From sequence record OR167180: a stretch of 64,000 bases of DNA. The stretch is one strand, 5' to 3'. This stretch comes from Escherichia phage MIZ4. A program made the translations under genes and the position numbers. This document shows positions 29,947-42,488 of the stretch, in pieces. The notes under the pieces are model-generated. The model ran no database searches and was not told the DNA's origin. It saw only the letters and a program-made list of their open reading frames with translations. Each line of letters starts with the position of its first letter. Within the stretch, counting starts at the first letter, position 1.

Positions 29947-30345
29947 TTAAGCCAGTCGAGTGAGTTTATAAATTGTTTTAAAGCATAGAGCTTTGATATC
30001 GTCTAAAACGCTCTGTAACGAGCTATCAACATCATTATAAATCTCACTAGCCATTTGCGTTAACTCTTGCAAATAGGCAATTTCGCTAATCTCCTTGCGG
30101 ACGACCAACTTTGGCTGATAACGACCAGTGATCCCAATATTGGTTTCAGTGAAATTATCAACCAATTCTTGCATTTCAAGATAGAACTCTTCTAGAGCCT
30201 TATGTTTTGCATAAGATCCAGGACCAGTTACCCCAAAATGCGCAGAATGCATATAAGTAACACTCATCAGACATTCACCGATAAAGCGGTCAACTTTATT
30301 AGCCTTTCCCTCTTCGGACGTCTTTAGAAAATCACTGAATTTCAT
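29947..30345 (-). CDS. hypothetical protein
   Basis: 132-aa ORF. Confidence 0.35.
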   Translation of the reverse strand: MKFSDFLKTSEEGKANKVDRFIGECLMSVTYMHSAHFGVTGPGSYAKHKALEEFYLEMQELVDNFTETNIGITGRYQPKLVVRKEISEIAYLQELTQMASEIYNDVDSSLQSVLDDIKALCFKTIYKLTRLA

Positions 30346-30634
30346 GTTCTCGATTCTCCATATTATTCAACAGAACAAATTGTTGTGCGGCATATCCCCC
30401 CATAATAAAACACTGCCTAGAATCCATACATTTACTACGAGCATACATCTTCATAATATGGGCATGAAATTTCTGGCTGGTTTCAATGGAAGGAGATATT
30501 TTGTTTACATATACTATCATTGCGCCGTCGAAATAATCAGTAAAGTCACCAGTTGGATCATATTGATCAGCACTGACACTTCCGACCGCAGTCAAGCATA
30601 TTGCCGCTGTTAGAGTTTTACGAATAAATGACAT
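30332..30634 (-). CDS. hypothetical secreted protein
   Basis: N-terminal signal-peptide-like MSFIRKTLTAAICLTAVGSVSA. Confidence 0.35.
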   Translation of the reverse strand: MSFIRKTLTAAICLTAVGSVSADQYDPTGDFTDYFDGAMIVYVNKISPSIETSQKFHAHIMKMYARSKCMDSRQCFIMGGYAAQQFVLLNNMENREHEIQ

Positions 30635-30702
30635 AAGTCATTCCCCCAGATTGAAAATATTCAATTATATTTATAATCTGGGGCTTTATTTATGATTAAC
30701 TC

Positions 30703-35495: not shown

Positions 35496-36089
35496 TTAAA
35501 CGTATTCAGCAACAACATTATGTTTAAAATTACCGCTCCTTTTTGGATTTGGATTTTTCAATCGACTATGTATTAAATTTTTGTTGTATCCGGTTGCTTT
35601 AGACGCTTCGCCAATACTTTGATAAACAACACCATTAACACGAATCGGACGAGACTTATTAAACAGTTTATTCAATCCGGCATCATATGCATGGTTTTGG
35701 TTTTCTTGCCTCGTTGCGATCTCAAGATTCCAAACACAATTACAAGATTTTACCCCACTTTTATGATTAATTTCAAGACCTTCACAATCACCTATAAAGT
35801 GTTCAGCAACTAGTCTATGAATATAGCGATATTTCTTACTTTCCCCATCATGCAAGCATACATTATAATAACCATCACCAGCGCGTTTAGGTCGGAGTAG
35901 TTTACCTTTAACACGTTTTATAGTAGGGAACTCACCAAATTGATTTCTCTGGATAAACGGAATCTCGCGGTCTAATGAACGGATTCGACCATAGTTAGAC
36001 ACTTGATAAAAACTTTCATATCCTTTAATTGGCTTCCATATCTCAGGGATTTCTACACCATCAATAACAACAAGTTTAAATTCTTCCAT
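35496..36089 (-). CDS. freestanding HNH homing endonuclease (NUMOD4 + HNH)
   Basis: NUMOD4-like YESFYQVSNYGRIRS; HNH HRLVAEHF..INHKSG..CNCVWNLE..TRQEN. Confidence 0.75.
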   Translation of the reverse strand: MEEFKLVVIDGVEIPEIWKPIKGYESFYQVSNYGRIRSLDREIPFIQRNQFGEFPTIKRVKGKLLRPKRAGDGYYNVCLHDGESKKYRYIHRLVAEHFIGDCEGLEINHKSGVKSCNCVWNLEIATRQENQNHAYDAGLNKLFNKSRPIRVNGVVYQSIGEASKATGYNKNLIHSRLKNPNPKRSGNFKHNVVAEYV

Positions 36090-36109
36090 ACTTCACCTCA
36101 TAAAAATAA

Positions 36110-36131
36110 AGCCAACCCTTTCGGATTGGCT
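36110..36131 (-). terminator. rho-independent terminator
   Basis: AGCCAATCC GAAA GGGTTGGCT then T-rich tract on the minus strand. Confidence 0.55.
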
Positions 36132-36137
36132 TGTTGA

Positions 36138-36551
36138 TTACATAGATTCCGTAAAGGTACGGGTGATAATATCAAGTTGTTGTTCGCGTGTCAAGGCGTT
36201 GAAGCGGGTAGCATAACCACTGATTCGAATTGTAAGCTGCGGGTACTTCTCAGGATGTTCAACCGCATCAAGAAGAGTCTCCCGACGCAGTACATTCGCG
36301 TTGAGATGATGACCCGCGTTACTATTTACCCCGTTATCAATTGCTAAAGGACGGAAGCTAGTTGTGTGCAGTTCCAGCGAATCGACGTCTTCTGCGGTGA
36401 TCACATGATCTTCTGCGAAAGTTTTACTAACAATTACTTTAGCGCCGATCAGTGCTTTCGGTTCGGATACCAGAATCATAGGCGCGAAATGTCCACCGAT
36501 AATAGTACCTTTATGCTCACCTTTCATGATTTGAATTGCTTTAAATTCCAT
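36138..36551 (-). CDS. autonomous glycyl-radical cofactor (GrcA/YfiD-like)
   Basis: [57 protein letters not shown] closely matches E. coli YfiD, including the RxSGY radical motif. Confidence 0.8.
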
Positions 36552-36686
36552 AATTCACCTCTTATAGATCAGGACGTTCGTCATTAATTTTACCAACCAA
36601 AACCCCATAGAGTTTATCAGGTTGGACTTTACGATTCTTATTGATTGTAGCACGGAATCGACGAGCCACGCTATCTTTATTTTTCA

Positions 36687-37172
36687 TTAGTTGATACCTA
36701 AGCCAATGAAAATAGGTTGGTCTTCTACATTACCCATCCCAACACTAAGTCGATTTACTTCTAAAAACTGCAATACGCTGTCAGTAAATCCGCGCATGGT
36801 AGTATCTAGGATAAAAATTGTTTTGTCAAGACTACGACCTCGCCATGTGATCGGATTCAGGAAAGTTCGGATCGACGTACAATCTACATTTGAAATATTT
36901 ACATTTTCACCGCGACCGCGATCTCGGATCGTTTTTGCATGTTCCCGCGTCGTTGAAACGATAAAGACACTATAGCCTTTTCTCGTATAATGGTCATATA
37001 ACTTGATTGTAGCGTCTGTATGCCCTGTCTGACGGCCTAAATTGATTGAGACAATGGAATCTAGGTCATCAGCAAAATTGCGTCGCTTACGACGTTCTAT
37101 GATGCCATTTACGGCAGAAATACACGCAGCATAAATCAAATCTTTACTTTCTAATTTTACATCAATATTCAT
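36687..37172 (-). CDS. hypothetical protein
   Basis: 161-aa ORF. Confidence 0.35.
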   Translation of the reverse strand: MNIDVKLESKDLIYAACISAVNGIIERRKRRNFADDLDSIVSINLGRQTGHTDATIKLYDHYTRKGYSVFIVSTTREHAKTIRDRGRGENVNISNVDCTSIRTFLNPITWRGRSLDKTIFILDTTMRGFTDSVLQFLEVNRLSVGMGNVEDQPIFIGLGIN

Positions 37173-37234
37173 GGTAAAGTCTCCAGTGAACGGGGAGAGA
37201 TCCTTAGATTGTCTCCCCGTTGATGGTTAATATT

Positions 37235-37624
37235 TTATTTTGGATCTGGGTATTTGCTGTGTGGTAGCTGAAAATGAACACCGTCTTTAAAACTAGTCCA
37301 ATCCCCACCCCATTCAACAGGAACACCCAATTCTCGACCAGCTTGTTTAAATGCATCCGCGATCATGCGGTAGTATTTCATGTTCCATGTATCCTTATCT
37401 TTCGGATACGCTACAACGTCAACCGCGAAACCGTGAAGATGACGAGATTTCATAGTCTTAGATTTACCTTCCGCAACATATTTCTTTTGCGTTTCTAGAC
37501 TACGTACACCTTCCGTAATACCAAAATCGACCGGAGTCAGTTCTAACGCACGATGAACGACTTTTACCAGGTCAGGATGCACACCAACAAGCCGATCTTT
37601 GCTTCTTTGAGATAATTTAAACAT
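37235..37624 (-). CDS. endolysin, peptidase M15 family
   Basis: zinc-ligand motifs SRHLHGFAVDV and DGVHFQL; occupies the position of T4 e. Confidence 0.7.
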   Translation of the reverse strand: MFKLSQRSKDRLVGVHPDLVKVVHRALELTPVDFGITEGVRSLETQKKYVAEGKSKTMKSRHLHGFAVDVVAYPKDKDTWNMKYYRMIADAFKQAGRELGVPVEWGGDWTSFKDGVHFQLPHSKYPDPK

Positions 37625-37652
37625 TATTCACCCCCTTTGTGAGTGATAATAT

Positions 37653-37844
37653 TTAGATTCCGGCGATCCTGCATAGATTTCTTGTATTAGCACCAATCAG
37701 GATCGCATTAACGACAACCATTCCCCAATCAACCCACTGATTATTATAAATGCTAAACCCGTTTGCAAGACCAAATACAAGCATTCCGGTCCACATACTC
37801 AGAGCAATAATCAACATCAAAGTAAAACCAAATGCAAATTTCAT
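37653..37844 (-). CDS. small membrane protein
   Basis: 63 aa, two hydrophobic helices. Confidence 0.35.
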   Translation of the reverse strand: MKFAFGFTLMLIIALSMWTGMLVFGLANGFSIYNNQWVDWGMVVVNAILIGANTRNLCRIAGI

Positions 37845-37845
37845 A

Positions 37846-38112
37846 TTATTTTCCTTTTCTCTGTTTACGTTTATAAAAGTAATACATTACCTCATCACGT
37901 CCGGTGATCCAACATGCTAGGGCGGTAAACAGGTTTACAATTCCCAACACACCTACTGACGCGGCGCTGTCAACAGACATAGGAACAGTAAAGGCCATAG
38001 ATAACATAGCAACGCCACAAATGACATTAAGCACCATTATAATAAGACCGAAGAAAACCATTGTCAATCCTCCGACACAAGAAAACCAACAATCACGCCA
38101 GTGATAAGACAT
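37846..38112 (-). CDS. small membrane protein
   Basis: 88 aa, hydrophobic helices, basic C-terminus. Confidence 0.35.
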   Translation of the reverse strand: MSYHWRDCWFSCVGGLTMVFFGLIIMVLNVICGVAMLSMAFTVPMSVDSAASVGVLGIVNLFTALACWITGRDEVMYYFYKRKQRKGK

Positions 38113-38255
38113 GATGCGCCGCTAATCAGACAACCCGCACCAAGTGATTCCCACCAGATCAGAGAAGCGACAACAACACAGAATCCCCATACTACCGCAA
38201 TCACAACATAGACAAGGGTCGCCCACAACATATATTTGTTCATAATAAATCCCAT
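38064..38255 (-). CDS. small membrane protein
   Basis: 63 aa, hydrophobic. Confidence 0.3.
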   Translation of the reverse strand: MGFIMNKYMLWATLVYVVIAVVWGFCVVVASLIWWESLGAGCLISGASCLITGVIVGFLVSED

Positions 38256-38428
38256 TCACCAAACAAATAAGAAAAAAGCCATATCAACAGAAACGAGGCA
38301 ATTGATCCGGCAAGCAAAATGATATTAGAGAATCCGCCGTCTATCCAGGCGACAAAACAGAATACGCCAGTATAGAAGCATAAACCAATTACAAAGCATA
38401 CTATAAGCAACCATAGACAAAACGCCAT
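38240..38428 (-). CDS. small membrane protein
   Basis: 62 aa, hydrophobic. Confidence 0.3.
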   Translation of the reverse strand: MAFCLWLLIVCFVIGLCFYTGVFCFVAWIDGGFSNIILLAGSIASFLLIWLFSYLFGEWDLL

Positions 38429-38650
38429 AGAAAGCCCTCCATCGAGATAAATTAGTGCGGGTAGGGGACTGCACTACCCGCTTTGTTAATCATCGCAGAG
38501 CTTCTTCTAGCGCGATCCCAAACCATCCACAAACAACTCCCATACAGACAGCTACAAGAAGATTCATTCTCTCTTTAGGGATCATTGCAATCATAACAAC
38601 AACCATACAGAAAGCCATTACCATTGAAGTTAACATTTGTTCAACCATTA

Positions 38651-38989
38651 TCACACCTTTAAAGTCATAGACGCATAAACATTAATGCCAGGCCAGTTAG
38701 GATCGCAATTATACTCAACATCCCACAAATAAAGCGGTTTAGATGTATCAGCCAAGTTTTTAAAATCTTCTACCCACATTTCAAGGCTATATGATGGATA
38801 AACTAGGCTATCATATCCGCCGTAACGTTGGCCTACTGGTCGGTCAGTAAAAACTACATCAAGATCCGGTAATTCTTTTTCAAGGATAACCGCCAGCGCA
38901 TAAATCAGACGGTCTTCCTTGTTACGCTGCCGTAGGACCGTTGTCAGTTGGTTTTTCTGGTTCACTAGCAAGCACCTCCACATTTTCAC
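38651..38989 (-). CDS. hypothetical protein
   Basis: 112-aa ORF. Confidence 0.3.
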   Translation of the reverse strand: MKMWRCLLVNQKNQLTTVLRQRNKEDRLIYALAVILEKELPDLDVVFTDRPVGQRYGGYDSLVYPSYSLEMWVEDFKNLADTSKPLYLWDVEYNCDPNWPGINVYASMTLKV

Positions 38990-39242
38990 AGAATGAAATT
39001 TTCACAGACACAATTTTACCATAAGTGAAGAATGAATATACATTATCGATATATTCAACGTCACCTACAATCACATCAAACTGCGGATCAGCAACCGCCG
39101 CAACATATTCTACCAGTTCATCAAGAGAATGCAACTTAATTTCATCAATTCGGCTGTATTTGGTTGCATCTTTGATTTTAAAACCACGTTCTTTCAGCTT
39201 ATCAATTAGAATTTCACGCGGAGTTTCAAACAGTTTGCTCAT
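38922..39242 (-). CDS. hypothetical protein
   Basis: 106-aa ORF. Confidence 0.3.
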   Translation of the reverse strand: MSKLFETPREILIDKLKERGFKIKDATKYSRIDEIKLHSLDELVEYVAAVADPQFDVIVGDVEYIDNVYSFFTYGKIVSVKISFCENVEVLASEPEKPTDNGPTAA

Positions 39243-39264
39243 AGTATAATCCTCACATAGTTAA

Positions 39265-39459
39265 TCAATGGTCAATAATCTTGCACATTATAACAGAAAG
39301 AACAAAGACCGCAACCCACATATAGATCCCAGCAATCAATGCAATTTCAATATCACAATATCCAAGATATACAACAGGAATAAAAACAAACATACAGACC
39401 AGCGCAAAGAAACTAGCAAAGGCGCTAGAAAATCCGATAGCAGTATTAGTAATATTCAT
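39265..39459 (-). CDS. small membrane protein
   Basis: 64 aa, hydrophobic. Confidence 0.3.
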   Translation of the reverse strand: MNITNTAIGFSSAFASFFALVCMFVFIPVVYLGYCDIEIALIAGIYMWVAVFVLSVIMCKIIDH

Positions 39460-39460
39460 A

Positions 39461-39643
39461 TTAACAATCCTCGCGGCTTAAGTCAACAGCAATTGCATAC
39501 AGCATAATGAATATGCTAGCCGATCCGAGAATCAATACACCCTCACATTTTGAAACTCGCTCATCAAAATGTAACATTATCCATCCGAGGATGTTAAAGG
39601 CGCAGACCGCGCCTATGTTCGCTAACCAATTAATCTTTTTCAT
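39461..39643 (-). CDS. small membrane protein
   Basis: 60 aa, hydrophobic. Confidence 0.3.
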   Translation of the reverse strand: MKKINWLANIGAVCAFNILGWIMLHFDERVSKCEGVLILGSASIFIMLYAIAVDLSREDC

Positions 39644-39651
39644 AATATACC

Positions 39652-39978
39652 TTAGAAAGAAACAGTTTTCAAGAAATCCAGATTTTTAGTACCGAAAACA
39701 GAAAAGTAGTGTTTTCCTTTTTCGGTTTTAGAGAAAGCGATTGTCTTCTCTACATGGTGACGGAAGCCAGACAGACGATCACCCAGGTCAAGGCGGCAAG
39801 CGTAAGTAGTGCCGTTTTCGAAAGTAACCTCGATTTGAGTTTTGTCATATTCGCTTTCATAGGCTTTTGCTGCCGCTTCCAGTGCTTTACGCTCGAAGTC
39901 TTCGAAGTGGAATACTTCGTTTGCGTTAGCGAATACAGAAGATTCAGAGAAGATAACTTTAACAGATACTGGTTTCAT
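39652..39978 (-). CDS. hypothetical protein
   Basis: 108-aa ORF starting at the cassette RBS. Confidence 0.35.
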   Translation of the reverse strand: MKPVSVKVIFSESSVFANANEVFHFEDFERKALEAAAKAYESEYDKTQIEVTFENGTTYACRLDLGDRLSGFRHHVEKTIAFSKTEKGKHYFSVFGTKNLDFLKTVSF

Positions 39979-40019: not shown

Positions 40020-40049
40020 TATTATGCTATACACCCTCTCGCGTGTCAA
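40020..40049 (-). promoter_or_regulatory. early promoter cassette, TTGACA-18-ATAATA
   Basis: minus strand TTGACA CGCGAGAGGGTGTATAGC ATAATA then leader CACCCATCGAAACGAAACAC. Confidence 0.5.
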
Positions 40050-41003: not shown

Positions 41004-41036
41004 CAACTTTTTTAAAAAAATTTTAGGCAATAAAAA

Positions 41037-41056
41037 AGCCACTCCGAAGAGTGGCT
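41037..41056 (-). terminator. rho-independent terminator
   Basis: AGCCACTC TTCG GAGTGGCT then TTTTTTATT on the minus strand. Confidence 0.55.
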
Positions 41057-41204
41057 TATAGGGAAGGTAGCGAATCTTCCTTGTCTCCAACCTGCTAGCG
41101 GCCTAGCAAGTGAATGCTTTAGCGTACCGGGTCGCCCATACGCTGTAATAAATGCGGCTAGGTGACGTCCAAATCATTCTAACCGCGCTGTCTTTAGTTC
41201 ACTA

Positions 41205-41423
41205 TTATTTATATCGCTTTCTCTCGCGACGTTTTTGATCTTCTTCCTTGATAGAGTTAAATGCATCAAAAAGACACATGACACTAATAATAAACATAAC
41301 CGTATTTTCTACGATATCCCACGGCTTCGCATCAGTACAGATCCCCCAAACGGTAAGAAATGCAAATAGTGCAGAAGAGATCACAAGCATGATACTTGCT
41401 AAGATATAAAAAGTCATTTTCAT
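41205..41423 (-). CDS. small membrane protein
   Basis: 72 aa, hydrophobic N-terminus, basic C-terminus. Confidence 0.3.
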   Translation of the reverse strand: MKMTFYILASIMLVISSALFAFLTVWGICTDAKPWDIVENTVMFIISVMCLFDAFNSIKEEDQKRRERKRYK

Positions 41424-41614
41424 GGTTTTACCTCAATTCTTCGATATTCATCACACATCCACACAGTAAGCAAGAATCCCAACACATAAGCAACAAAATA
41501 CGTTAATACTTCTTCTGGTTCGGTGCTATGCGCCATCATCAGACCAGCGAGAAAGGTCTTAACAATTACATTTAAAATAATTAGCCACGCAAATAATTTC
41601 ATCGTTTGCCCCAT
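41420..41614 (-). CDS. small membrane protein
   Basis: 64 aa, hydrophobic. Confidence 0.3.
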   Translation of the reverse strand: MGQTMKLFAWLIILNVIVKTFLAGLMMAHSTEPEEVLTYFVAYVLGFLLTVWMCDEYRRIEVKP

Positions 41615-41838
41615 TTCGGTCGAGTCTTTTCAAACTTATACATTCCGTAACAATCTCGAATCATCCACGTAACAAGAGCACCAGTCAACACCGACAATAC
41701 ACAGAAGAAGTAAAACGGTCCGGTTGCATTATCAACATGAGCAAGCCAGGTAAAGAAAACACATGCTAAGAATGTAAAGAACATCATAAAGCACAAGAAA
41801 GCGAAATATTTTATACTACTCATAGCGCCACCATACAA
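41599..41838 (-). CDS. small membrane protein
   Basis: 79 aa, hydrophobic. Confidence 0.3.
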   Translation of the reverse strand: MYGGAMSSIKYFAFLCFMMFFTFLACVFFTWLAHVDNATGPFYFFCVLSVLTGALVTWMIRDCYGMYKFEKTRPKWGKR

Positions 41839-41926
41839 CAGATCATAAGAAACCCCAACGCAATAAGAATTGCATCAAATTTAGTGAACTCCGGTCCACC
41901 TATCAACATCATTCGTTCCTGTTCAT

Positions 41927-42124
41927 TCATAGATCACAGAGCCATCTTAAAGCACCACATAAAGCGAGCAGAATACTAGGTATAAACGAGACTAAAACAA
42001 GTTTACAAAAATCATCTAAGGTAACACCGGAATAGCTACCTACTGTAACAACACCGATCATCAGACACAGAAAGAAAACAAATGCAATCAGAAACAAAGT
42101 ATTGCTAAACAGTTTAGTGATCAT
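41927..42124 (-). CDS. small membrane protein
   Basis: 65 aa, hydrophobic. Confidence 0.3.
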   Translation of the reverse strand: MITKLFSNTLFLIAFVFFLCLMIGVVTVGSYSGVTLDDFCKLVLVSFIPSILLALCGALRWLCDL

Positions 42125-42329
42125 TAGACACCCCCACGACGATCAATTTCAAAAACTTTTTTTACCATCAACGAAGCATGTCACAACTGCCTCGTTGACT
42201 TCCGCAAATTGTTGTGTTACCCACTTAAGGTCAGATCGAAACAATGTTCTATTAATAACAAATGTTTTACCGCTCTTATCCTTACCCATAAATTTTGCTT
42301 TAACCATATCCAATTCCATATTATCACCT

Positions 42330-42488
42330 TATTTGCTAATCGCTAAACCTAATCCGAAGAGAGCACCCGAGGCTACAGTATACCCGAAAGTTTCAAAGGC
42401 AGTAAAGACATCTAAGCCACCAGCTAACAGAGTTGCAGTAAACAGAGTACCAGCTACGAACATAAAAGTTTTACCGATAAATTTCATT
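42330..42488 (-). CDS. small membrane protein (not in ORF track)
   Basis: hand translation MKFIGKTFMFVAGTLFTATLLAGGLDVFTAFETFGYTVASGALFGLGLAISK, immediately downstream of cassette 42519-42547 with the canonical AGGAGAATCAAA RBS. Confidence 0.4.

What the first reader, a model, noticed from the sequence alone, without database searches (positions are those of the whole stretch)
37235..38648. Lysis region uses an M15 peptidase endolysin flanked by a run of small membrane proteins
At the position of T4 e the phage encodes an M15-type peptidase (HxxGxAxD...H) rather than a lysozyme. Immediately upstream are four small hydrophobic ORFs (37653-38428) and a fifth unannotated 51-aa membrane ORF at about 38493-38648. 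These are candidates for holin or antiholin functions or for membrane-acting immunity proteins.
Basis: partly seen in the sequence, partly recalled or inferred. Interest (0 to 1): 0.45.

Follow-up and report, generated by a model that had tools for sequence, protein, structure and literature searches.

The report
Known phage endolysin plus orphan membrane genes
This is the already characterised cell-wall-cutting enzyme of RB49-type coliphages, sitting where T4 keeps its lysozyme, and the small membrane-protein genes upstream of it are real but function-unknown genes that are probably made early in infection and are unlikely to be the phage's hole-forming lysis proteins.

Summary
The window is 100% identical to Escherichia phage MIZ5 (Krischvirus, RB49-like). 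Gene 37235-37624(-) is an M15 L-alanoyl-D-glutamate peptidase about 98% identical to solved, biochemically studied EndoRB49, and it sits in the T4 e slot (vs.8 ... 57B). Upstream lie five tightly packed ORFs of 52-71 aa, each with two hydrophobic helices.

- **The small ORFs are real genes.** They show pN/pS of 0.08-0.55 and occur in the same order in all 58 Krischvirus genomes and in more divergent metagenomic relatives.
- **They are orphans.** I found no paralogy among them, no Pfam/NCBIfam hit, and no homologues outside the clade, even in 1.84 billion representative proteins.
- **The holin reading is weak.** Every Krischvirus has a canonical T holin, and MIZ5 also has an RI antiholin and spanins elsewhere. 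The small genes sit in a predicted early (sigma-70) transcription unit.
- **The endolysin looks separately regulated.** Its ribosome-binding site and AUG are buried in a hairpin whose 5' arm carries a late-promoter-like box. This is the T4 gene e design, and it recurs in other M15-carrying straboviruses.

Most likely they are early accessory inner-membrane proteins, for superinfection immunity or counter-defence. That role is untested. Interest is low to moderate.

The parts
37235..37624 (-). Endolysin: M15C L-alanoyl-D-glutamate peptidase, EndoRB49 orthologue. Soluble, with no signal or SAR sequence.
   Evidence: Pfam PF13539 1.4e-12. phrog_465 1.6e-68. PDB 23ri 5.6e-86 and 8q2g 7e-85 over the full length. 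H62, D69, H117, D114 and W109 are present, as defined for EndoRB49 in PMC10487532. No hydrophobic stretch. pN/pS 0.19-0.25.
37608..37659 (-). Predicted RNA hairpin over the endolysin translation start. The 5' arm contains the late-promoter-like box TCTAAATA (37657-37650, overlapping the m1 stop codon). The 3' arm contains the Shine-Dalgarno GGGGGTGA and the AUG (37624-37622).
   Evidence: MFE -12.5 kcal/mol, z -2.1, 8/200 shuffles. The hairpin is longer (-17.2) in divergent relatives because codon 3 AAA->AGA pairs with the C of the box. The same box-in-5'-arm layout at -32 to -36 is seen in T4 e, MP1, SdyM_006 and POP12. The same TCTAAATA precedes gene 37.
37653..37844 (-). m1: 63-aa two-helix membrane ORFan (RB49 ORF103). 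Probably N-in/C-in, from K2 and R55, R59.
   Evidence: Hydropathy. phrog_15016 unknown function. pN/pS 0.23-0.29. Only Krischvirus-type homologues found.
37846..38061 (-). m2: 71-aa two-helix membrane ORFan (RB49 ORF104) with an invariant second helix and a basic C-terminal tail YKRKQRKGK. It is the most constrained of the five within the genus.
   Evidence: Hydropathy. pN/pS 0.08 within the genus and 0.17-0.35 against divergent contigs. Only close homologues among 5.8 billion proteins. Only its own cluster among 1.84 billion representatives. AF2 helical hairpin H2-25/H30-69, pLDDT 78. Foldseek uninformative.
38064..38243 (-). m3: 59-aa two-helix membrane ORFan (RB49 ORF105).
   Evidence: Hydropathy. 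phrog_16151. pN/pS 0.24-0.35. Only close homologues.
38240..38428 (-). m4: 62-aa two-helix membrane ORFan (RB49 ORF106) with no basic residue. It overlaps the m3 start by 4 nt. It is not annotated in the MIZ5 record and is the least constrained of the five.
   Evidence: Hydropathy. phrog_19354. pN/pS 0.24-0.47. Mostly deleted in ELT4, carries an indel in PHB13, and is partly duplicated in JK32.
38457..38481 (-). Intergenic stem-loop between m5 and m4 (GCGGGTAG ... CTACCCGC). The stem is largely conserved and the loop varies. No promoter hexamers lie at usable spacing.
   Evidence: Alignment of 13 genomes/contigs. The rearrangements of m4 map around it. It resembles the stem-loop half of the PeSL elements of PMC2839356.
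38490..38648 (-). m5: 52-aa two-helix membrane ORFan (RB49 ORF107). The charged loop K25-E26-R27 suggests N-out/C-out.
   Evidence: Hydropathy. phrog_16035. pN/pS 0.28-0.55.
38651..39978 (-). Upstream genes of the same predicted early unit: s6 (38651-38965), s7 (38922-39242), two more two-helix ORFs m8 (39265-39459) and m9 (39461-39643), and s10 (39652-39978, LPD25 domain).
   Evidence: ORFs and hydropathy. PHROGs of unknown function. LPD25 3.1e-14. pN/pS 0.03-0.36.
40021..40049 (-). Sigma-70 consensus promoter TTGACA-17-CATAAT. It is the nearest predicted early promoter upstream of the small genes and the endolysin.
   Evidence: It matches the position of the published RB49 early promoter prediction Pe:57746. 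No other predicted early promoter follows until after the endolysin, and no TransTerm terminator is listed between ORF113/112 and vs.6.
37189..37221 (-). G/C-tract stem-loop (AACGGGGAGA ... TCTCCCCGTT) just after the endolysin stop. It is the site where JSE and JK32 carry an extra endonuclease-like gene.
   Evidence: Sequence. JSE/JK32 insertion.
30332..30634 (-). rI antiholin, part of the canonical T4-type lysis system. An exact TATAAATA lies upstream of its start.
   Evidence: Pfam Antiholin PF24205 4.6e-23. Late box at 30675. Coordinates are converted from L001 2733-3035.

Best explanation
**Lysis in this phage is the ordinary T4 scheme with a swapped enzyme.**
- A soluble M15C L-Ala-D-Glu peptidase (EndoRB49 type) occupies the gene e slot.
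- It is released by the canonical T holin, timed by RI, and followed by the spanins encoded next to pseT.

**The endolysin gene lies at the end of a long early transcription unit.**
- The unit starts at the sigma-70 promoter at 40049-40021.
- On those transcripts a hairpin buries the Shine-Dalgarno sequence and the AUG, so no endolysin is made early.
- Late in infection, transcription from the TCTAAATA box inside the 5' arm of that hairpin would give a shorter mRNA that cannot fold. That mRNA would be translated, as shown experimentally for T4 gene e.

**The five small genes upstream (and m8, m9) are therefore early genes, not a lysis cassette.** Each encodes an independent two-helix inner-membrane protein, conserved across the genus. 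The most likely role is to modify the envelope of the already infected cell. That would mean superinfection immunity or exclusion (standing in for the missing Imm and Sp) or neutralising membrane-based host defences.

**Shown:** enzyme identity, gene reality, membrane character, clade restriction, and presence of T/RI/spanins.
**Inferred:** early timing, the hairpin switch, and the envelope-protection role.
For: **Enzyme**
-.

**Canonical lysis genes**
- Phage_holin_T 3.4e-60, Antiholin 4.6e-23, and annotated spanins.
- T is present in 58/58 Krischvirus records.

**Early unit**
- A consensus promoter lies at 40049-40021, equivalent to published Pe:57746.
- No promoter or terminator is predicted between it and the endolysin in RB49.
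- Genes are packed 1-4 nt apart or overlapping.

**Hairpin and box**
-.
- The same layout, with the box 32-36 nt before the AUG and the AUG paired, occurs in T4 e, POP12, MP1, SdyM_006 and divergent Krischvirus-like contigs.
- Among 17 genes with a late-like box within 45 nt, the 3 that met my full SD- and AUG-pairing filter fold at only -4.1 to -6.4, against -13.2 for the endolysin start region. The endolysin itself had 5 of the 6 paired SD positions the filter required, so it was not one of those 3.
- TCTAAATA also precedes gene 37, and ACTAAATA precedes a baseplate hub gene.
- The T4 mechanism is documented in PMC3014915.

**Small genes are real and conserved**
- pN/pS 0.08-0.55.
- Same order in 58 genomes and in contigs where m2 is only 79% identical.

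**No Imm or Sp**
- Best phmmer E-values were 0.41 and 0.15.

**Neighbourhood**
- It holds counter-defence-type genes: dmd, 57B/Acb1 and LPD25.
- M15 endolysins in Gualtarvirus and Bragavirus sit in the same slot without small membrane genes.
Against: - No expression data for any Krischvirus were found, so early timing rests on predicted promoters.
- The box has C at -12, which Nolan 2006 calls rare outside Aeh1. Their HMM did not predict a late promoter here.
- The MIZ5 hairpin is only moderately stable: z -2.1 in a 71-nt window and -1.1 in an 85-nt window. Its folding energy ranks 33rd of 247 start regions.
- The sequences are too similar for real covariation.
- The envelope-protection role is argued only from architecture, timing and the absence of Imm/Sp.
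- m2 (two helices plus a highly charged C-tail, two genes from the endolysin) fits the generic description of a class II holin just as well.
Confidence: 0.55

Rival explanations
1. One or more of the small proteins, above all m2 or the endolysin-adjacent m1, is an auxiliary holin, pinholin-like depolariser or antiholin. It would tune lysis timing alongside T and RI.
For: - They are adjacent to the endolysin and on the same strand.
- They have two transmembrane helices, and m2 has a basic, invariant C-tail typical of holins.
- Holins are notoriously diverse, so lack of homology is not exclusion.
- A siphovirus with a 63.5%-identical endolysin flanks it with two annotated holin/antiholin genes.
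Against: - A complete T/RI/spanin set is present, with T conserved in all 58 records.
- No holin family reaches threshold. With the correct start, the Phage_holin_3_5 hit is E 0.19 among other generic membrane-family noise.
- No similarity to the Sergei holins.
- Placement is in a predicted early unit, with the endolysin start masked.
- No dual-start motif.
- The endolysin is soluble and needs large holes, not a pinholin.
- Related straboviruses use the same enzyme without these genes.
Confidence: 0.15
2. The small proteins are counter-defence or host-takeover effectors that bind specific host inner-membrane proteins, such as abortive-infection sensors, proteases or transporters. They would not be blocks to superinfecting phage.
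For: - Location is in a hyperplastic region of ORFans, which PMC2839356 describes as adaptive.
- Neighbours include dmd, 57B/Acb1 and an LPD25 protein.
- There are seven unrelated families rather than one amplified family.
- Evolution is faster than in the flanking soluble genes.
Against: - No match to any known anti-defence family.
- Genus-wide retention in fixed order is more typical of core physiology than of arms-race cargo.
- With the tools used here this cannot be separated from the immunity reading.
Confidence: 0.25
3. The small ORFs are non-functional filler or mis-called ORFs in T-rich DNA.
For: - The ORFs are short, and the hydrophobic composition follows from T-rich codons.
- m4 is missing from the MIZ5 annotation and lost in ELT4.
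Against: - pN/pS is well below 1 for all five.
- Reading frames are intact in 12 of 13 genomes or contigs examined, or all 13 for m1, m2, m3 and m5.
- Each has a Shine-Dalgarno sequence.
- Order is fixed across relatives in which synonymous sites have diverged 15-46%.
Confidence: 0.03

Closest known systems
EndoRB49 / EndoT5 (M15C L-alanoyl-D-glutamate peptidase endolysins)
   Same: About 98% identical to the solved EndoRB49-type chains 23ri and 8q2g. 38.5% identical to T5 Lys. Same zinc ligands, catalytic Asp and conserved Trp.
   Different: Nothing of note. There are two or three substitutions relative to the deposited sequences. Unlike EndoT5, the RB49 enzyme has no Ca2+ regulation (PMC10487532).
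Translational masking of T4 gene e (lysozyme) by an RNA hairpin that late promoters bypass
   Same: A late-promoter-type box about 33 nt before the AUG forms the 5' arm of a hairpin that pairs with the Shine-Dalgarno sequence and AUG. The gene sits in an early read-through unit in the same genomic slot.
   Different: - The regulated gene is a non-homologous enzyme.
- The box is TCTAAATA rather than TATAAATA, and there is one box rather than two.
- Here the hairpin is only predicted.
- The 2010 review listed RB49 and phi1 as having 'no apparent gene e', so it did not examine them.
T4 Imm (immunity to superinfection) and Sp (spackle)
   Same: Imm is a small (83 aa) protein with two hydrophobic helices and a charged C-tail (sequence), like m2. 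The genome lacks detectable Imm and Sp, so the role is vacant. That Imm is an early inner-membrane protein is from my own knowledge.
   Different: No sequence similarity. Different genomic location. There are five to seven proteins instead of one. No functional data.
Class II holins (e.g. S21-type, two helices, N-in/C-in)
   Same: Size, two helices, a charged C-terminus (m2), and proximity to an endolysin.
   Different: - No family match.
- No dual start.
- Predicted early rather than late expression.
- A canonical T holin is present.
- The partner endolysin is soluble, not SAR-type.
ORFan cassettes of the RB49/phi1 hyperplastic regions with PeSL promoter-stem-loop elements (PMC2839356); T4 e.2-e.4
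   Same: - Clade-restricted small ORFs lie between conserved modules.
- Consensus sigma-70 promoters and G/C stem-loops are nearby.
- Indels occur at stem-loops.
- T4 e.2, e.3 and e.4, upstream of e/nudE, are also hydrophobic proteins of unknown function.
   Different: - m1, m2, m3 and m5 are not variable cargo; they are present in all 58 genomes.
- The m5/m4 stem-loop has no associated promoter.
- There is no sequence similarity to T4 e.2-e.4.

Membership tests
M15C L-alanoyl-D-glutamate peptidase endolysins (EndoT5/EndoRB49) | Peptidase_M15_4 / VanY-type domain | tested here: met
   PF13539 1.4e-12, 48.5 bits against a cut-off of 25. phrog_465 endolysin 1.6e-68.
M15C L-alanoyl-D-glutamate peptidase endolysins (EndoT5/EndoRB49) | Zinc ligands His-Asp-His, catalytic Asp and conserved Trp (H62, D69, H117, D114, W109 in EndoRB49) | tested here: met
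   All five residues are at those positions in the translation. The residue list is from PMC10487532.
M15C L-alanoyl-D-glutamate peptidase endolysins (EndoT5/EndoRB49) | Cleaves the L-Ala-D-Glu bond of peptidoglycan | not testable with these tools
   Shown for RB49's enzyme in PMC8140593 and PMC10487532. The window protein differs at 2-3 of 129 positions.
T4 gene e-type translational masking | RNA helix that pairs the Shine-Dalgarno sequence and/or AUG in transcripts from upstream | tested here: met
   Predicted only. -12.5 kcal/mol with the AUG and part of the SD paired. It is stronger in divergent relatives and present in four other lineages.
T4 gene e-type translational masking | Late promoter inside the 5' arm, so that late mRNA lacks it | tested here: inconclusive
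   TCTAAATA at -33 has one mismatch to TATAAATA. The same variant lies before gene 37. It was not predicted by Nolan 2006. No 5'-end data exist.
T4 gene e-type translational masking | Early read-through transcription into the gene | not testable with these tools
   Only predicted promoters and terminators are available.
Holins (Pfam/NCBIfam holin families, T4 T, class II) | Sequence membership in a described holin family | tested here: not met
   No hit at threshold for m1-m5. The best is Phage_holin_3_5 at E 0.039-0.19 and 12-15 bits against a cut-off of 27. No relation to the Sergei holins.
Holins (Pfam/NCBIfam holin families, T4 T, class II) | At least one transmembrane helix plus a charged hydrophilic C-terminus | tested here: met
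   Clear for m2, weak for m1, and not for m3-m5, whose ends are short or acidic. The feature is not specific; T4 Imm has it too.
Holins (Pfam/NCBIfam holin families, T4 T, class II) | Late expression together with the endolysin | tested here: inconclusive
   The predicted architecture argues against it: an early promoter upstream, no late box before any small gene, and a masked endolysin start.
Holins (Pfam/NCBIfam holin families, T4 T, class II) | Forms lethal membrane lesions that release endolysin | not testable with these tools
   Needs expression experiments.
T4 Imm / Sp superinfection exclusion proteins | Sequence similarity to Imm or Sp | tested here: not met
   phmmer of T4 Imm and Sp against all ORFs of 160 kb of MIZ5 gave best E-values of 0.41 and 0.15. 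No Pfam Imm_superinfect hit.
T4 Imm / Sp superinfection exclusion proteins | Blocks DNA entry or lysis from without by secondary phage | not testable with these tools
   Needs superinfection assays.
PeSL-flanked ORFan cassettes of RB49-type hyperplastic regions | Clade-restricted ORF next to a composite sigma-70 promoter plus stem-loop | tested here: inconclusive
   Clade restriction is met. Full terminator-plus-promoter elements lie at 41057-40975 and a promoter at 40049-40021. The m5/m4 element is a stem-loop only, and m1, m2, m3 and m5 are not variable.

The most novel reading that the evidence does not exclude
The five co-conserved, mutually unrelated two-helix proteins (perhaps with m8 and m9) assemble early in infection into a phage-built inner-membrane complex. 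The complex would replace the missing Imm/Sp functions or act as an extra control on T-holin triggering. This would be a multi-subunit envelope-protection or lysis-timing device with no described counterpart.
Probability: 0.12. Interest if true: 0.6.

Novelty: new member of a known kind. Interest (0 to 1): 0.27.

Why it matters
- **The headline is settled knowledge.** RB49-type phages use an M15 peptidase instead of T4 lysozyme, and the enzyme has solved structures.
- **A regulatory design outlived the gene it regulates.** The late-promoter-in-hairpin control of T4 gene e appears to have been kept, or rebuilt, at the same locus around a non-homologous enzyme in several straboviral genera.
- **A compact set of membrane-gene knock-out targets.** About a dozen genus-conserved early membrane ORFans with no homologues sit in a phage group widely used for therapy. 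They are tractable candidates for superinfection exclusion or counter-defence functions.

Tried and rejected
- **Paralogy among m1-m5, m8, m9.** hhalign of per-gene alignments gave all probabilities <=2.2%. They are not detectable tandem duplicates.
- **Family searches.** Pfam, NCBIfam and PHROGs gave only function-unknown PHROGs and sub-threshold generic membrane hits.
- **Homology searches.**
  - 5.8 billion clustered proteins for m2, m3 and m1.
  - tblastn of m1 in phages.
  - blastn 'distant' of the whole cluster.
  - Profile search of m2 against 1.84 billion representatives.
  - All returned Krischvirus-type relatives only.
- **Structure.** AF2 of m2 gives a helical hairpin. Foldseek against viral structures found only the Phi1 orthologue.
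- **Co-transfer with a donor lysis cassette.** No similarity to the holin/antiholin genes flanking the closest non-straboviral endolysin (Sergei), nor to genes upstream of the endolysin in MP1 or SdyM_006, nor to T4 e.2-e.8.
- **Internal promoter.** TTGACA-17-TATTAT at 38067-38039 is not conserved in divergent contigs and would start inside m2, so I treated it as fortuitous.
- **Exact late promoters.** Only two TATAAATA boxes lie on the minus strand of the window (30675 and 41213), and neither is directly before the small genes.
- **Literature.** No functional or expression study of these ORFs was found. Desplats 2002 is not held.
Full report
**Identity of the window.** Region 36600-39700 is 100% identical to Escherichia phage MIZ5 (OR167181.1, Krischvirus, Straboviridae). 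It is 94-98% identical to 57 other RB49-like phages. Window position 1 corresponds to record position 96001. All genes between 35.5 and 42.5 kb are on the minus strand.

**The endolysin.**
- ORF 37235-37624(-) encodes 129 aa. It matches Pfam Peptidase_M15_4 (1.4e-12) and the endolysin PHROG 465 (1.6e-68).
- It aligns end to end with PDB chains 23ri (5.6e-86) and 8q2g (7e-85, 'peptidoglycan L-alanyl-D-glutamate endopeptidase'), with two or three differences. More distant matches are ChiX and T5 endolysin 2mxz.
- The residues defined for EndoRB49 (H62, D69 and H117 for zinc, catalytic D114, W109; PMC10487532) are all present in the translation.
- There is no hydrophobic N-terminus, so it is a cytoplasmic endolysin that needs a large-hole holin.
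- The enzyme family is very widespread: 1421 phage records.
- This part of the finding is correct but already known (PMC8140593, PMC10487532).

**Position.**
- The gene order here and in JSE/RB49 is rI, tk, tk.4, vs, vs.1, regB..., vs.6, vs.8, endolysin, small ORFs..., dmd..., 57B, 57A, 1, 3, 2, 4, 53, 5.
- T4 has vs.8, denV, ipII, ipIII, e, nudE, e.2-e.8, tRNAs..., 57B. 'At the position of T4 e' is therefore fair.
- The same M15 enzyme occupies the same slot in Gualtarvirus MP1 and in a Bragavirus, next to nudE as in T4. There it has ordinary soluble neighbours instead of small membrane genes.

**The small ORFs are real genes.**
- With the starts used in RB49/JSE, the ORFs are m1 37653-37844 (63 aa), m2 37846-38061 (71 aa), m3 38064-38243 (59 aa), m4 38240-38428 (62 aa) and m5 38490-38648 (52 aa).
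- Each has a Shine-Dalgarno sequence. They are 1-2 nt apart or overlapping, apart from a 61-nt gap between m5 and m4.
- Each has two hydrophobic stretches. TMHMM two-helix predictions for four of the RB49 orthologues were published as supplementary data in 2006.
- AF2 models m2 as a helical hairpin (H2-25, H30-69, pLDDT 78).
- Pooled pN/pS among eight Krischvirus genomes is 0.23, 0.08, 0.24, 0.47 and 0.28 for m1-m5. The endolysin gives 0.25 and the flanking soluble genes give 0.05-0.10.
- Against metagenomic relatives with 15-46% synonymous divergence, the ratios are 0.17-0.55.
- The 1-kb block is present in all 58 Krischvirus records and in no other phage record at blastn sensitivity.
- In contigs where m2 is only 79-86% identical, the order 51/62/59/71/63 aa followed by the endolysin is unchanged.
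- m4 is the weak point. It is mostly deleted in ELT4, has an indel in PHB13, is partly duplicated with m5 in JK32, and is not annotated in MIZ5.

**The small ORFs are orphans.**
- The seven small membrane proteins of the stretch are not detectably related to one another (hhalign probabilities <=2.2%).
- Each falls in its own function-unknown PHROG. None reaches a Pfam or NCBIfam threshold.
- The Phage_holin_3_5 hit of m2 was E 0.039 with an over-long start and 0.19 with the annotated start. It sits among other generic membrane families.
- Searches of 5.8 billion clustered proteins with m2, m3 and m1 returned only 78-98% identical proteins from contigs of Krischvirus genome size or fragments.
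- A profile of m2 against 1.84 billion representatives found only its own cluster.
- Foldseek against viral models found only the Phi1 orthologue.
- No similarity was found to the holin/antiholin genes that flank the closest non-straboviral endolysin (Salmonella phage Sergei, 63.5% identical), nor to T4 e.2-e.8.

**A canonical lysis system is present.**
- MIZ5 encodes a 218-aa Phage_holin_T protein (3.4e-60) just after the tail-fibre genes. It encodes an RI antiholin (PF24205, 4.6e-23) in the window at about 30332-30634, with an exact TATAAATA upstream. Two annotated spanins lie next to polynucleotide kinase.
- The T gene is in all 58 Krischvirus records at >=95% identity.
The other half, no permeabilisation by the small proteins, cannot be tested here.

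**Transcription context.**
- Consensus sigma-70 promoters lie at 41003-40975 (behind a strong terminator at 41057-41036), 40734-40706 and 40049-40021.
- The last is in the position of the published RB49 early-promoter prediction Pe:57746.
- That study predicts no further early promoter until after the endolysin. It lists no terminator between the weak one at ORF113/112 and the one after vs.6.
- No exact late box precedes any of the small genes.
- The TTGACA-17-TATTAT match at 38067-38039 lies inside the m3/m2 junction and is not conserved in divergent relatives.
- So s10, m9, m8, s7, s6, m5, m4, m3, m2, m1, the endolysin and vs.8 appear to form one early read-through unit. This is a prediction. 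I found no expression data for any Krischvirus.

**How the endolysin escapes early expression.**
- The RNA from 37659 to 37608 folds into a hairpin. The arm UAAAUAUUAUCACUC pairs with GGGUG-AAUAAUGUUUA, which is the Shine-Dalgarno sequence and the AUG. The energy is -12.5 kcal/mol, z -2.1, with 8 of 200 shuffles as good.
- The 5' arm contains TCTAAATA (37657-37650), one mismatch from the T4 late promoter, 33 nt before the AUG.
- In the divergent contigs the hairpin is longer (-17.2 for the hairpin alone; -20.1, z -3.1 for the 85-nt start region). Codon 3 is AGA instead of AAA there, and it pairs with the C of the box.
- T4 gene e has the same layout: two TATAAATA boxes at -34 and -21, with the SD and AUG paired. 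The mechanism there is experimentally established. Long early transcripts are not translated, and late transcripts that start inside the structure are (PMC3014915).
- That review listed RB49 and phi1 as having 'no apparent gene e', so it did not look at them.
- The same layout appears upstream of the M15 endolysins of POP12 (TATAAATA at -34), MP1 (AATAAATA at -32) and SdyM_006 (AATAAATA at -36). It does not appear in the Pseudotevenvirus Margaery or in the non-straboviral phages Sergei and F5M2A.
- Within MIZ5, TCTAAATA also precedes gene 37, and ACTAAATA precedes a baseplate hub gene.
- Seventeen genes have a late-like box within 45 nt upstream. The three that met my full SD- and AUG-pairing filter fold at only -4.1 to -6.4, against -13.2 for the endolysin start region. 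The endolysin had 5 of the 6 paired SD positions that filter required, so it is not one of those three.
- Caveats: C at -12 is called rare in RB49 late promoters. The published late-promoter HMM did not call this site. The MIZ5 hairpin energy alone ranks only 33rd of 247 start regions.

**What the small proteins most likely do.**
- If the endolysin must be masked on transcripts coming from upstream, the upstream genes are expressed when lysis must not happen. They would be early genes, unlike T4-type holins.
- T4's small early membrane proteins include Imm, which has two helices and a charged tail like m2 (sequence), and Sp. Neither has a detectable homologue in 160 kb of MIZ5. That Imm and Sp are early proteins is from my own knowledge.
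- The neighbourhood carries dmd, 57B/Acb1 and an LPD25 protein. It belongs to one of the ORFan-rich hyperplastic regions described for RB49/phi1.
- Nearly all small membrane ORFs I could detect in this genome are packed into window 37.6-42.5 kb.
- I therefore favour early accessory inner-membrane proteins that protect or remodel the infected cell's envelope. The role would be superinfection immunity first and counter-defence second. An auxiliary holin/antiholin role, best candidate m2, is a minority possibility. None of these functions is tested.

**Verdict.**
- The endolysin is already known.
- The small genes are genuine, genus-restricted orphans, and their proposed holin role is not supported.
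- The modest new point is the apparent conservation of gene-e-type translational masking around a non-homologous endolysin.

Noticed in passing
window 41030-41213 (-): A 276-bp gap between ORFs holds a candidate structured small RNA of about 165 nt. An exact late box TATAAATA (41213-41206) is followed by a strongly folding sequence (-62.6 kcal/mol, z -4.45, 0/200 shuffles) that ends in an intrinsic terminator (41057-41036). Then comes a consensus sigma-70 promoter (41003-40975). The region is 92.6-99% identical in relatives. Most of the variation falls in hairpin loops, and one pair changes on both sides. There is no Rfam family, no tRNA, and no similarity to T4 rnaC/rnaD, although it sits in the interval where T4 has those RNAs.
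   Followed up: partly
window 41205-42487 (-): A second run of small hydrophobic ORFs (72, 64, 74, 65 and 52 aa) lies just upstream of dmd. Together with m1-m5, m8 and m9, this 5-kb stretch holds nearly all small membrane ORFs detected in the 160 kb of the genome examined.
   Followed up: partly
L002 9636-10211 and L011 575-1150 (JSE, JK32), equivalent to window ~37189-37234: JSE and JK32 carry an extra 191-aa ORF between vs.8 and the endolysin. The records label it 'hypothetical protein' in JSE and 'pathogenesis-related transcriptional factor and ERF protein' in JK32. The last ~27 residues of their endolysin are replaced by a different sequence. I read the ORF as a homing endonuclease and the replaced end as co-conversion, but I did not run a family search on it.
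   Followed up: no
window 35496-36551 (-): vs.6 (36138-36551) is a GrcA-like autonomous glycyl-radical protein (Pfam Gly_radical 9.3e-16). MIZ5 has a 197-aa ORF annotated as an HNH endonuclease (35496-36089) directly downstream of it. RB49 and several relatives lack an ORF there.
   Followed up: no
window 38240-38481 (-); L012, L010, L011: The m4 gene and the stem-loop next to it (38457-38481) are a rearrangement hot spot. m4 is deleted in ELT4, has an indel in PHB13, and is partly duplicated with m5 in JK32. The stem is largely conserved and the loop differs between genomes.
   Followed up: partly
L018 3153-4194 (T4 e.2, e.3, e.4): T4 also has hydrophobic proteins of unknown function upstream of e/nudE. 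e.3 and e.4 each have strongly hydrophobic segments, and e.4 has a basic tail. This is a positional parallel to the Krischvirus run without any sequence similarity.
   Followed up: partly
L003/L004/window (MIZ5 record 1-160000): No homologue of T4 Imm or Sp is detectable by phmmer in any ORF of at least 35 aa. The last 5.5 kb of the genome were not searched.
   Followed up: partly
L004 14075 (+) and L003 20836 (-): Late-promoter-like boxes with C at -12 (TCTAAATA, ACTAAATA) precede gene 37 and a baseplate hub gene. Krischvirus may therefore tolerate this variant, which earlier work considered typical only of Aeh1.
   Followed up: partly
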